NCBI RefSeq assembly: GCF_009914755.1
Contig: NC_060925.1
DNA length: 64,000 nucleotides
Source of the DNA: the human T2T-CHM13v2.0 reference genome, Homo sapiens
Strand: one strand, 5' to 3'
In this document: positions 42,515 to 45,268 of the stretch, piece after piece
Layout of the letters: every line of letters starts with the position of its first letter
Position numbering within the stretch: position 1 is the first letter of the stretch
The notes under the pieces: generated by a model
Told to the model about the DNA's origin: nothing
Databases searched by the model: none
Seen by the model: only the letters and a program-made list of their open reading frames with translations
Translations under genes and position numbers: made by a program

Positions 42515-42872
42515 TGAGTGAATGAATTCTTGACTTCCAGTCTATCCCTAACTCTGTCAATTTCTTAATTCATGAAATGATTATGCATATGTGATATGAA
42601 TGGATATCTCGTTCAATCCATTAGTCTTCGGACAGTCAAAAACCCAATCAGGATTAACTGAGTGGAGCTTCAGAAATGCAATCAGATATCGCTTTTTGAT
42701 TGGAAGCTAGCAGCGGATACGTGGAGGGGCGTGGGTGGGAGTTGTGATTAGAAAGGTCAATAAAAGCTTCTAAAGACCCACAGGACAAACTCAAAGTCTT
42801 CAAGCCTGGAGTTCCTGCTTGGCTCTTCCTGAGGTCTGAGCACCTTCTAAACTACAACCAGATCTGGTAAGT
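42515..42872 (+). promoter_or_regulatory. PRAMEF-derived promoter and exon 1 upstream of HNRNPCL (GT at 42867; acceptor AG at 43076-77)
   Basis: GC box at 42726-35, AATAAAA at 42759-65, CTG|GTAAGT; 94 bp identical to copy A. Confidence 0.8.
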
Positions 42873-43258
42873 CACTAATTTCTGTAAGGACACTCCCATG
42901 TGACCTACAGTCAGCCGGTCTAGAACGGTGACAGTGCAGCCTACGATGGCATAGAACTATATCATGTCTTTTTTTCTTTTTTTCATATGAACACTTTGAA
43001 GCTTTGATTTTTTTTTCTAAATGCAATTTTGTCGTGATTTCAAAAATGTTGTTGTGCTTTTCTTTACATCATTTCAGAATTCTTGTTGGCAGCCATTTTG
43101 TGAAGAGACGAAGACTGAGCTGTTTTGGCTGCATTTCTGGCCTCGAGCCGCAGTCAGCTTCTCCCCGTAGAACCCGGCAGTAGGAGACTTAGAATCGAAT
43201 CTCTTCTCCCTCCCGCCTCCTGTTTTTGGCTTTTTGAGAAACCTTATCATCCAACACA

Positions 43259-44140
43259 ATGGCCAGCAACGTTACCAACAAGATGGATCCTCACTCCGTG
43301 AACTCCCGTGTGTTCATTGGGAATCTCAACACTCTTGTTGTCAAGAAATCTGATGTGGAGGCGATCTTTTCCAAGTATGGCAAAATTGCGGGCTGCTCTG
43401 TTCATAAGGGCTTTGCCTTCGTTCAATATGATAAGGAGAAAAATGCCCGGGCTGCTGTAGCAGGAGAGGATGGCAGAATGATTGCTAGCCAGGTTGCAGT
43501 TATTAACCTGGCTGCAGAGCCAAAAGTGAACCGAGGAAACGCAGGTGTGAAACGATCCGCAGCGGAGATGTACGGCTCCTCTTTTGACTTGGACTATGGC
43601 TTTCAACGGGATTATTATGATGGGATGTACAGTTTCCCAGCACGTGTACCTCCTCCTCCTCCCATTGCTCTGGCTGTAGTGCCCTCGAAACACCAGCGCA
43701 TATCAGGAAACACCTCACGAAGGGGCAAAAGTGGCTTCAATTCTAAGAGTGGAAAGCGGGGATCTTCCAAGTCTGGAAAGCTGAAAGGAGATGACCTTCA
43801 GGCCATTAAGCAGGAGTTGACCCAGATAAAACAGAAAGTGGATTCTCTCCTGGAAAACCTGGAAAAAATTGAAAAGGAACAGAGCAAACAAGAGGTAGAG
43901 GTGAAAAATGCTAAGTCAGAAGAGGAGCAGAGCAGTAGCTCCATGAAGAAAGATGAGACTCATGTAAAGATGGAGTCTGAGGGGGGTGCAGAAGACTCTG
44001 CTGAGGAGGGGGACCCACTGGATGATGATGATAATGAAGATCAGGGGGACAACCAGCTTCATTTGATCAAGAATAATGAAAAAGATGCTGAGGAAGGAGA
44101 GGATAACAGAGACAGCACCAATGGCCAGGATGACTCTTAA
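43259..44140 (+). CDS. HNRNPCL2: hnRNP C-like protein (retrogene of the HNRNPC C1 isoform), 293 aa, intact
   Basis: Intronless ORF with an RRM ([14 protein letters not shown]), basic region, leucine zipper [25 protein letters not shown] and acidic tail. AATAAA at 44770, ATTAAA at 44785, A tract at 44801-12, flanking TSD. The family is certain; the paralog number (CL1-4) is from recall. Confidence 0.92.
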
Positions 44141-45268
44141 GCACATAGTGGGGTTGAGAAATCTTATCCCATTGTTTCTTTACCTAGGAGCTTGTCTAAC
44201 AACAAATTTTTCACCAGATCCTCTCCCTTAGTATCTTCAGCACATGCTTACTGTTCTCCCCATCCTTGTCCTTCCCACATTCATTAATTCATATTGCCCT
44301 GTGCCTAGTCCCATTTTCACTTCCCATGACACCCCTAGTAGTTTTCCTAAGTCTTACCCTGTAATTTTTGCTTTTAATTTTGACACCTCTTTATGACTTA
44401 ACAGTAAAAAGGATGTATGGTTTTTATCAACTGTCTCCAAAATAATCTCTTGTTATGCAGGGAATACAGTTCTTTTCTTTCATACATAAGTTCAGTAGTT
44501 GCTTCCCTAACTGCAAAGGCAATCTCATTGAGTTGAGTAGCTCCTGAAAGCAGCTTGGAGTTACAAGTATGTGTGTTACACCCCATATTAGTGTGCTGTG
44601 TGGGGCAGTTCAACAAAAATCTAACAATGTATTTTTGTGAATGAGAGTTGGCATGTCAAATGCATCCTCAGAAACATAATTGGTGTTATAGTCTTCAAAT
44701 GTGTTTTCTAAAGTTGATACCGTGGGTTATTTTTGTGAACAGCTTGATGTTTGGGACCTTTTCCCTGAAAATAAACAACTCTTTATTAAACCAGCAATTT
44801 AAAGAAAAAAAATTCTTGGTGGGAGCAATGACTCATGCCTGTAACTACAACACTTTGGGAGGCCAAGGTGGGAGGATCGTTTGAGCGCAGGGGTTCGAGA
44901 CCAACCTGGGCAACATGGCAAAACCCTATCTCTACAAAACATTTGTTTTGAGGGGCGGGATGGAGTCTCACTCCGTTACCCAGGCTGGAATGGAGTGGCA
45001 CAATCTCAGCTCACTCCAACCTCTGCCTCCCAGGCTCAAGCGATTCTCATGCCTCAGCCTCCTGAGTAGCTGGGATTATAGCCACCCACCACCATGAGCA
45101 GCTCATTTTTATATTTTGGATAGAGACGGCGGTTCACCATGTTGGCCAGGCTGGTCTCAAACTCCTAACCTCAAGTGATCCACCTGCTTTGGCCTCCCAA
45201 AGGGCTGGGATTACACCAGTGAGCCACCAATGCCCTGCCTCTTTTTTAAAAAATTAGATGGGCATGGT

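What the first reader, a model, noticed from the sequence alone, without database searches (positions are those of the whole stretch)
42515..44822. HNRNPC retrogene captured a PRAMEF promoter; a point change in its own TSD created the splice acceptor
Seen: the retrocopy is flanked by AGAATTCTTGTTGG (43076-89) and AAAATTCTTGGTGG (44809-22), an imperfect TSD at an L1-endonuclease-like TC|AAAA site. Three empty-site paralogs (1775, 3931, 51790) read TTTCAAAATTCTTG in intron 1 of the PRAMEF module. Only the filled 5' copy has TTTCAG|AAT, and its upstream tract is more pyrimidine-rich (CTTTTCTTT vs CTTTGGTT). This predicts a new 211-nt intron (42867-43077) that joins the PRAMEF non-coding exon 1 to the HNRNPC 5'UTR. 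Homology to PRAMEF intron 1 ends near 46300 and no PRAMEF body follows, so the retrogene replaced the module's original gene. Known: PRAMEF and HNRNPCL genes are induced by DUX4 and at the cleavage stage. Inference: this explains mechanistically how an RNA-binding protein was wired into that programme.
Basis: partly seen in the sequence, partly recalled or inferred. Interest (0 to 1): 0.88.

Follow-up and report, generated by a model that had tools for sequence, protein, structure and literature searches.

The report
HNRNPC retrogene riding a PRAMEF promoter
HNRNPCL2 is a processed copy of the HNRNPC gene that landed in the first intron of a PRAMEF gene and is expressed from that gene's promoter and first exon; when the splice site that joins them arose is still open.

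Summary
A full-length, intronless HNRNPC copy (about 43092-44808) lies between direct repeats at a TTTC|AAAA site. It sits 209 nt inside intron 1 of a PRAMEF-type promoter and exon-1 module. Twenty-two paralogous modules carry the site empty.

The predicted 211-nt intron (42867-43077) is exactly the RefSeq HNRNPCL2 intron. Its donor is the PRAMEF exon-1 donor. Its acceptor AG (43076-77) lies in the 5' repeat copy. The gene structure is therefore annotated already, and promoter capture by intronic retrocopies is a known class. I found no paper telling this story for HNRNPCL.

Corrections:
- The repeat is 16-18 bp, not 14.
- The 3' copy's leading A's cannot be told from the A-tail, so they are not independent evidence.
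- One of the 22 empty modules, the nearest relative of the host's 3' flank, already reads TTTCAG. The claim that a mutation in the repeat made the acceptor is therefore only about 55% likely, against about 38% for a pre-existing AG.
- The PRAMEF body was lost at a rearrangement junction (46530) shared with HNRNPCL4, not displaced by the retrocopy.
- The richer pyrimidine tract is shared by all three HNRNPCL copies and is absent from every close relative.

Moderate interest.

The parts
42515..42804 (+). PRAMEF-type promoter. It includes two 10-of-11 matches to the DUX4 motif (recalled as TAAYBBAATCA) at 42640-42650 and 42674-42684, and an AATAAAAG box at 42760-42767.
   Evidence: It aligns with the promoters of PRAMEF25 and other modules. 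The motif positions are conserved in paralogous modules at 1342/1376, 3496/3530 and 51355/51389. DUX4 binding was not tested.
42805..42866 (+). HNRNPCL2 non-coding exon 1, paralogous to the 3' part of PRAMEF exon 1.
   Evidence: RefSeq exon supplied by the hub. PRAMEF25 exon 1 (3589-3722) matches 42733-42866 at 94%. The donor CTG|GTAAGT is kept in 22 of 24 aligned modules; the other two read CTA|GTAAGT.
42867..43077 (+). 211-nt intron, made entirely of the first 211 nt of PRAMEF intron 1 (GT...AG).
   Evidence: RefSeq annotation.
43058..43075 (+). Pyrimidine tract of the acceptor: 15 of 18 pyrimidines, and no AG for 78 nt upstream.
   Evidence: All 3 HNRNPCL copies have 15/18 and the 16 closer empty modules have 12-14/18. 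The TC in place of GG is found in the HNRNPCL copies only.
43076..43093 (+). 5' target-site duplication AGAATTCTTGTTGGCAGC. Its first two bases are the acceptor AG, and G43077 is the base in question.
43092..44808 (+). Full-length processed HNRNPC retrocopy (5'UTR, CDS, 3'UTR, short A-run). All 7 parental introns are absent.
   Evidence: The 8 exons of the chr14 parent map contiguously onto it. Its 5' end coincides with the 5' ends of other HNRNPC processed copies.
43259..44140 (+). Intact 293-codon ORF with an RRM and the hnRNP C oligomerisation segment.
   Evidence: PDB 2mxy (HNRNPC RRM), E 2e-54, and 1txp at residues 180-207. Pfam RRM_1. dN/dS against the parent is 0.48.
44770..44775 (+). 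Inherited parental poly(A) signal AATAAA. The RefSeq model ends earlier, at 44171.
44809..44826 (+). 3' target-site duplication AAAATTCTTGGTGGGAGC. The leading A's are ambiguous with the A-tail.
44827..45268 (+). Continuation of PRAMEF intron 1. It starts with an old Alu-like monomer.
   Evidence: It aligns with the empty modules and with L036.
45269..46138 (+). 870-bp insertion private to this copy, with TG...CA ends and a 6-bp direct repeat CATGGT. It looks like a solo LTR.
   Evidence: It is absent from HNRNPCL4 and from the empty modules. Its family was not identified.
46139..46530 (+). Last stretch of PRAMEF intron-1 homology. The module ends at 46530, where an 88% copy of 37857-40207 begins.
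   Evidence: The junction is shared with HNRNPCL4.

Best explanation
HNRNPCL2 arose when L1 machinery inserted a full-length HNRNPC mRNA copy, in sense orientation, at a TTTC|AAAA site 209 nt into intron 1 of a PRAMEF-family gene. This made a 16-18-bp target-site duplication.

The retrocopy brought no promoter. Transcription starts at the PRAMEF-type promoter. The PRAMEF non-coding exon 1 is spliced from its own donor (42866|42867) to an AG (43076-77) that lies in the 5' duplication copy, 14-16 nt before the parental 5'UTR.

Most likely, the second base of that duplication changed from A to G after the insertion and so made the AG. Changes then followed that enriched the pyrimidine tract, which are shared by all three HNRNPCL copies. 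A rearrangement at 46530 removed the host PRAMEF body before the locus was duplicated into HNRNPCL4 and HNRNPCL2.

The result is an hnRNP C paralogue under PRAMEF-type control, which includes induction by DUX4.

Shown here: the retrocopy, the duplication, the empty sites, the shared donor, the position of the acceptor, and the loss of the host body. Taken from annotation or papers: the spliced transcript and the DUX4 induction. Inferred: the order of insertion and A>G change.
For: Retrocopy and insertion site:
- The eight parental exons on chr14 map contiguously, with splice-site-flanked boundaries in the parent.
- The 18-bp flanking repeats match at 16 of 18 positions in the state inferred for the HNRNPCL ancestor.
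- 22 empty paralogous sites were examined; 21 read CAAAAT.
- TTTC|AAAA corresponds to TTTT/GA on the nicked strand. From recalled knowledge this is a common variant of the L1 endonuclease site. The alternative nick required by a pre-existing G (AATT/CT) is a poor site.

Splicing:
- The donor is paralogous to the PRAMEF25 donor, and exon 1 is 94% identical to PRAMEF25 exon 1.
- All 3 of 3 HNRNPCL copies in this assembly share TTTCAG and the CTTTTCTTTAC tract. None of the 16 closer empty modules has the tract.

Function and expression:
- The 293-aa ORF is intact in all three copies. dN/dS against the parent is 0.37-0.48, while a chr2 processed copy gives 1.11.
- HNRNPCL2 is named in a basket of DUX4-regulated genes together with PRAMEF4, PRAMEF5 and PRAMEF15 (passages). 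HNRNPCL3 is named among FSHD-induced genes (passage).
Against: Against a post-insertion A>G change:
- One empty module, L025, reads TTTCAGAATTCTTGGTGG. It has both the G and the GGTGG of the 3' repeat copy.
- In the tree of intron plus 3' flank, L025 groups with the HNRNPCL host modules at support 92/89, which is below the tool's threshold for a reliable branch. It shares 6 unique sites with them in 346 columns of 3' flank.
- A single A>G change on the common stem is therefore more parsimonious than two parallel changes.
- The A in the 3' repeat copy does not count, because it merges with an A-run that the parent genome also encodes.
- Gene conversion is evident. The CL2 promoter is closer to PRAMEF25 (5.7%) than to HNRNPCL4 (9%). 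The stretch 43000-43500 differs by only 1-5% among copies, against 9-14% in the 42100-42999 flank. Shared states among the three copies are therefore not three independent witnesses.

Not examined here: RNA reads, CAGE data and primate genomes.
Confidence: 0.55

Rival explanations
1. Same retrogene and same promoter and exon capture, but the AG was already in PRAMEF intron 1 before the insertion, as in the sister module L025. The retrocopy landed 12-14 nt downstream of a dormant acceptor-like CAG. The duplication is AATTCTTGGTGGGAGC (16 bp). Only the later pyrimidine-tract changes were new. In a variant, the nick fell before AG and the G of the 3' copy later changed to A.
For: - L025 has the G and is the nearest empty relative in the 3' flank.
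- This model needs one substitution in the 5' repeat copy (G>T at 43086), not two.
- The 3' junction sequence is identical under both models, because the A-run hides the boundary.
Against: - It requires L1 nicking at AATT/CT, a poor site by recalled endonuclease preference. The variant requires an extra G>A change.
- 21 of 22 empty modules have A, including all six rows of the distant PRAMEF34P/36P-type group.
- In the 5' flank, L025 shares no unique site with the HNRNPCL copies other than the G itself, and the 5' tree does not place it as their sister.
- The alternative grouping is not rejected (AU p = 0.10).
Confidence: 0.38
2. L025 is not a naive empty site. It is a former filled module that lost the retrocopy by recombination between the two duplication copies, which left a chimera: G from the 5' copy and GGTGG from the 3' copy.
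For: The L025 site is exactly the 5' state at position 2 joined to the 3' state at position 11. It is related to the host in the 3' flank.
Against: - L025 carries none of the 11 sites in the 5' flank that are specific to the HNRNPCL copies, nor the TC tract.
- By recalled literature, precise removal of retroelements is rare.
- A PRAMEF body follows L025, unlike the truncated HNRNPCL modules.
Confidence: 0.03
3. The PRAMEF exon-1 junction is a minor or annotation-driven isoform. Most HNRNPCL2 transcripts start within or just upstream of the retrocopy, so the promoter capture is not what drives expression.
For: - No reads were examined here.
- The RefSeq model ends at 44171 without a poly(A) signal, which suggests thin transcript evidence.
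Against: - The parental CpG-rich 5'UTR has decayed: 22 of 166 sites differ from the parent.
- The acceptor region and 5'UTR are the best-conserved non-coding part among the three copies.
- Co-induction with PRAMEF genes by DUX4 is reported.
Confidence: 0.04

Closest known systems
Retrocopies that integrated into an intron of a host gene and are expressed as chimeric transcripts with the host's upstream exons (Carelli et al. 2016, PMC4772013, passages read; that paper cites Fablet et al. 2009, which I did not read)
   Same: Sense insertion in a host intron, use of the host promoter and 5' exon, and a new 5'UTR intron. Carelli et al. report 13 such human cases and say that most new retrogene exons lie upstream.
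   Different: Here the host is a member of a multi-copy DUX4-responsive family. The acceptor lies in the target-site duplication itself. The host's coding body was then lost, so only the retrogene remains. The whole unit was afterwards copied by segmental duplication.
HNRNPC (parent gene, chr14) and its ordinary processed pseudogenes
   Same: The same mRNA, 5' end and poly(A) site region as at least nine other processed copies in the genome. The RRM matches the solved HNRNPC RRM.
   Different: Only the chr1 copies sit behind a PRAMEF exon 1. They keep a 293-aa ORF with dN/dS 0.37-0.48. A young chr2 copy gives 1.11, though on few changes (8 non-synonymous, 2 synonymous).
PRAMEF genes (for example PRAMEF25 in this window)
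   Same: Promoter, exon 1, donor and the first 1.2 kb of intron 1 are homologous. The promoter stretch differs by 5.7-6%.
   Different: No PRAME coding exons follow. The module ends at 46530.

Membership tests
L1-mediated processed retrocopy | Lacks all introns of an identifiable parent gene | tested here: met
   The 8 exons of the chr14 parent map contiguously. The parental boundaries carry AG/GT.
L1-mediated processed retrocopy | Flanking target-site duplication, present once in empty paralogous sites | tested here: met
   An 18-bp repeat with 16 of 18 positions identical in the inferred ancestral state. There are 22 empty modules.
L1-mediated processed retrocopy | Insertion at an L1 endonuclease-type site (TT|AAAA-like) | tested here: met
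   The empty sites read TTTC|AAAATT. The site preference itself is recalled knowledge. If the pre-insertion site carried G, this feature would fit poorly.
L1-mediated processed retrocopy | 3' poly(A) tail that is not encoded in the parent genome | tested here: inconclusive
   Only 8 A's remain before TTCTTGG, and the parent genome itself has 10 A's at that place.
Host-promoter / 5'-exon capture by an intronic retrocopy | Sense insertion inside a host intron, downstream of a host exon with a working donor | tested here: met
   The insertion lies 209 nt after the donor, which is paralogous to the PRAMEF25 exon-1 donor. Both are on the + strand.
Host-promoter / 5'-exon capture by an intronic retrocopy | A spliced transcript joins the host exon to the retrocopy | not testable with these tools
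   The RefSeq NM_001136561.3 exons 42805-42866 and 43078-44171 come from the hub table. No reads could be examined.
hnRNP C protein family | N-terminal RRM plus the hnRNP C oligomerisation helix | tested here: met
   2mxy, E 2e-54, residues 2-106; 1txp, E 5e-8, residues 180-207. Pfam RRM_1, 44 bits against a cut-off of 20.7.
DUX4-induced / cleavage-stage gene set | Induced by DUX4 | not testable with these tools
   From papers only. HNRNPCL2 is in a 12-gene basket of DUX4-regulated genes (passages). HNRNPCL3 is listed among FSHD-induced genes (passage).
DUX4-induced / cleavage-stage gene set | DUX4 binding motif in the promoter | tested here: inconclusive
   Two 10-of-11 matches (first base A, not T) lie at 42640 and 42674, at positions conserved in PRAMEF modules. 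There is no exact match in this promoter. The motif is recalled.
DUX4-induced / cleavage-stage gene set | Expressed at the 4-8-cell stage | not tested
   The two papers that hold both 'HNRNPCL' and '8-cell' do not show it in the passages I read.

The most novel reading that the evidence does not exclude
An intron was born in steps on a datable scaffold. First a retrocopy landed in PRAMEF intron 1. Then an A>G change in its own target-site duplication made the acceptor. Then the pyrimidine tract was strengthened and the host body was lost. Selection, or concerted evolution, has since held the acceptor, 5'UTR and RRM-coding stretch (43000-43500) nearly identical among the paralogues. The outcome is a primate-specific hnRNP C paralogue that is switched on with the PRAMEF genes by DUX4.
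Probability: 0.5. Interest if true: 0.5.

Novelty: new member of a known kind. Interest (0 to 1): 0.4.

Why it matters
It gives a simple structural reason why HNRNPCL genes appear in DUX4 and FSHD signatures next to PRAMEF genes: they are driven by a PRAMEF promoter and first exon. It is also a clean worked example of how a promoter-less retrocopy gains a promoter, an exon and an intron.

The example has an unusual control: 22 unfilled paralogous sites in the same genome. These let each step be polarised. They also show that the most attractive detail, an acceptor made by a mutation in the duplication, is not yet proven.

For annotation and expression work, the result warns of two things. Reads on exon 1 are shared with PRAMEF paralogues. 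And the copies exchange sequence by gene conversion.

Tried and rejected
Whether HNRNPCL is in their table of host-gene chimeras is unknown.
- Nine literature searches found no description of HNRNPCL promoter capture or of the PRAMEF link:
  - 'hnrnpcl' + 'retrogene': 2 papers, neither relevant.
  - 'hnrnpcl' + 'dux4' + 'pramef': 5 papers.
  - A six-term HNRNPCL1/retrocopy/PRAME search, any three terms required: nothing on this in the 25 of 226 papers listed.
  - PRAME + hnRNP C + segmental duplication + chromosome 1, any three required: 15 of 44 listed.
  - At least two of the HNRNPCL1-4 names: 12 papers.
  - 'hnrnpcl' + 'pramef' + 'promoter': 8 papers.
  - 'hnrnpcl' + '8-cell': 2 papers.
  - 'hnrnpc' + 'retrocop' + 'prame': 0 papers.
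  - One search was badly built and uninformative.
- Birtle 2005 on the PRAME cluster has no occurrence of hnRNP, retro or promoter. Baertsch 2008 has no occurrence of HNRNPC or PRAME.
- Subscription journals are not in the library.
- I tried to settle the timing of the G with trees:
  - The 5' flank tree places the HNRNPCL host next to the PRAMEF25-type clade (support 85/79), with L025 in a basal polytomy.
  - The 3' flank tree and the intron plus 3' flank tree place L025 with the host (93/91 and 92/89).
  - The AU test does not reject the other grouping (p = 0.10).
  - The flanks have different histories, so the trees alone do not decide.
- I rejected short-tract gene conversion from an HNRNPCL copy into L025. 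L025 lacks the HNRNPCL-only bases 9-14 nt upstream and the T ten bases downstream, so the tract would have to be under about 18 bp.
- I did not score splice-site strength with a trained model, because none was available. Only pyrimidine counts and AG-free distances are given.
- My odds use rough branch lengths and a recalled L1 site preference. They are estimates, not a computed likelihood.
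Full report
**1. What is in the sequence**

The stretch 43092-44808 is a processed copy of HNRNPC. A search of the window's own assembly placed the eight exons of the chr14 parent contiguously on it. 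They cover positions 15-1735 of the 1745-nt query. In the parent each boundary is flanked by AG and GT, so all seven introns are missing from the copy.

The copy starts at the same bases (G)GCCATTTTGTG as other HNRNPC processed copies elsewhere in the genome. It runs to the parental AATAAA (44770-75) and the bases behind it.

The ORF 43259-44140 is open for 293 codons. It matches the solved HNRNPC RRM (2mxy, E 2e-54) and the hnRNP C oligomerisation helix (1txp). It also reaches Pfam RRM_1.

**2. The insertion site**

The 5' flank aligns with paralogous PRAMEF-type modules up to the repeat. The 3' flank aligns with them from the repeat onward. Each of those modules holds the repeat once.

The pattern TTTCAAAATTCTTG has 8 matches in the window at up to two mismatches, against 1.57 expected. 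None of 100 shuffles reached 8.

With the two other HNRNPCL copies in view, the duplication is 18 bp long:
- The 5' copy is AGAATTCTTGTTGGGAGC in the inferred ancestor. CL2 has a private G>C at 43090.
- The 3' copy is AAAATTCTTGGTGGGAGC.
- The final GC is shared with the mRNA 5' end.

The empty sites read TTTC|AAAATT. From recalled knowledge this is a usual variant of the L1 endonuclease site.

**3. Promoter and exon capture**

PRAMEF25 exon 1 (3589-3722) matches 42733-42866 at 94%. The donor CTG|GTAAGT lies in the same alignment column in PRAMEF25 (3722|3723) and here (42866|42867).

The hub's RefSeq table gives the HNRNPCL2 exons as 42805-42866 and 43078-44171. The AG at 43076-77 is formed by the first two bases of the 5' duplication copy.

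The gene structure is thus not new. I could not examine reads.

The promoter carries two 10-of-11 matches to the DUX4 motif, which I recalled from memory. They sit at positions conserved in the paralogous modules. This is suggestive only.

In the passages I read:
- HNRNPCL2 is one of twelve best-discriminating DUX4-regulated genes in FSHD muscle, together with PRAMEF4, PRAMEF5 and PRAMEF15.
- HNRNPCL3 is listed among FSHD-induced genes.
- I found no passage that shows 8-cell expression.

**4. Was the acceptor made by a change in the duplication?**

I collected every module that the genome search returned with this site. That gave three filled copies (CL2; HNRNPCL4 at chr1:12,579,960; a third at chr1:12,391,102-12,392,481) and 22 empty ones.

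All 3 filled copies read TTTCAG. Of the 22 empty modules, 21 read TTT(C/T)AA, including all six rows of the distant PRAMEF34P/36P-type group.

The exception is L025 (chr1:12,851,200-12,852,400). It is the 5' end of a PRAMEF gene whose body is present. It reads TTTCAGAATTCTTGGTGG.

L025 is also the empty module closest to the host's 3' flank:
- 83.8% identity, against 78-83% for the others.
- Grouped with CL2 and CL4 at support 93/91 in the 3' flank tree and 92/89 in the intron plus 3' flank tree.
- Six uniquely shared sites in 346 columns, against one for any other lineage.

In the 5' flank, the only site that L025 shares uniquely with the HNRNPCL copies is the G itself. The 5' tree does not make L025 their sister. 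A grouping of the host with the PRAMEF25-type clade is not rejected (AU p = 0.10).

This was the A in the 3' duplication copy. The parent genome encodes GGAG followed by ten A's, and the retrocopy has AAAG followed by eight A's and then TTCTTGG. Where the tail ends and the duplication begins cannot be read.

Two histories remain.
- **(a) The site was CAAAAT.** The nick was TTTT/GA. The G arose afterwards in the 5' copy and, independently, in L025.
- **(b) The G arose once, on the short stem shared by L025 and the host.** The retrocopy then went in at a poor site (AATT/CT), or at TTCT/GA with a later G>A change in the 3' copy.

I weighed these with rough branch lengths and with a recalled site preference. 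That gives about 55% for (a) and about 38% for (b). These are estimates.

A third idea is that L025 lost the retrocopy by recombination between the duplication copies. It fits the chimeric look of the L025 site. However, L025 has none of the 11 HNRNPCL-only sites in the 5' flank.

**5. What is firmly derived in the HNRNPCL lineage**

The pyrimidine tract CTTTTCTTTAC is in all three filled copies and in none of the 16 closer empty modules, L025 included. The count is 15 of 18 pyrimidines against 12-14. The distant group has 14-16, with a different sequence. In CL2 the AG-free stretch upstream of the acceptor is 78 nt.

**6. Fate of the host gene**

No homology to PRAMEF exons 2-4 lies between 43000 and 53980. 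Intron-1 homology continues at 44827-45268 and 46139-46530 and stops there. From 46530 the sequence is an 88% copy of 37857-40207, the stretch that precedes this module.

HNRNPCL4 runs across the same junction. The body was therefore lost by a rearrangement before the two copies were duplicated, and the retrocopy did not displace it.

The stretch 45269-46138 is an 870-bp insertion private to CL2.

**7. Evolution of the copies**

All three copies keep the 293-aa ORF.
- dN/dS against the parent is 0.37-0.48, with dS 0.11-0.125.
- Among the copies it is 0.28-0.51.
- A chr2 processed copy gives 1.11, on few changes.

The flanks of CL2 and CL4 differ by 9-14% over 42100-42999. The stretch 43000-43499, which holds the acceptor, the 5'UTR and the RRM-coding part, differs by only 1-5% in each pair. 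The 5'UTR differs at 2 of 167 sites among the copies, and at 22 of 166 from the parent.

Synonymous sites are also alike, so I read this as concerted evolution, possibly with selection. The CL2 promoter is closer to PRAMEF25 (5.7%) than to HNRNPCL4 (9%), which again points to gene conversion.

**8. Comparison with what is known, and verdict**

Retrocopies that enter a host intron and are expressed with the host's upstream exons are a described class. Carelli et al. 2016 report 13 human cases and note that most new retrogene exons lie upstream (passages).

In the searches listed under Tried and rejected, I found no paper that describes this for HNRNPCL and PRAMEF. Subscription journals and the supplements of Carelli et al. 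could not be seen.

The finding is a well-observed new example of a known kind, at a locus whose exon structure is already annotated. This genome contains one empty site that speaks against it.

Noticed in passing
window 28541-37136 and 55413-64000: A near-perfect inverted duplication, 99.9% over 8,596 bp, that runs off the window end. It carries PRAMEF36P and PRAMEF34P. HNRNPCL2 and PRAMEF35P lie in the roughly 18-kb spacer between the arms.
   Followed up: partly
window 43000-43499: The acceptor, 5'UTR and RRM-coding stretch differ by only 1-5% in each pair of the three HNRNPCL copies, while the 42100-42999 flank of CL2 and CL4 differs by 9-14%. The 5'UTR has 2 of 167 differences among copies but 22 of 166 against the parent. 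This could be gene conversion, constraint, or both.
   Followed up: partly
window 695-2402 (exon-1-like 1435-1568): A second PRAMEF promoter and exon-1 module, with an exon-1 stretch 96% identical to PRAMEF25 exon 1, sits 2.15 kb upstream of the real PRAMEF25 exon 1. No coding body of its own lies between them.
   Followed up: partly
window 45269-46138: An 870-bp insertion with TG...CA ends and a 6-bp direct repeat CATGGT. It is absent from HNRNPCL4 and from all empty modules, and looks like a solo LTR. The family was not identified.
   Followed up: partly
L014 (chr1:12,389,602-12,393,981, minus strand): The third HNRNPCL copy keeps the ORF but loses homology in the 3'UTR, at the position of about window 44457. 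About 800 bp further on it continues with sequence 98.7% identical to window 49052-49736.
   Followed up: no
window 44141-44808: The RefSeq HNRNPCL2 model ends at 44171, 31 nt after the stop codon, and I saw no AATAAA there. The inherited parental 3'UTR and its AATAAA (44770-75) continue for another 640 nt.
   Followed up: no
L013 (chr2:190,412,539-190,414,247): A young HNRNPC processed copy, about 1% from the parent, also has an open 293-codon frame. Its dN/dS is 1.11, on 8 non-synonymous and 2 synonymous differences.
   Followed up: no
window 35855-36082 and 56467-56694: Isolated 228-bp fragments of the PRAMEF-type promoter, 88% identical to 42483-42710 and holding both DUX4-like motifs. They lie in the inverted-repeat arms, away from any annotated exon.
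   Followed up: no
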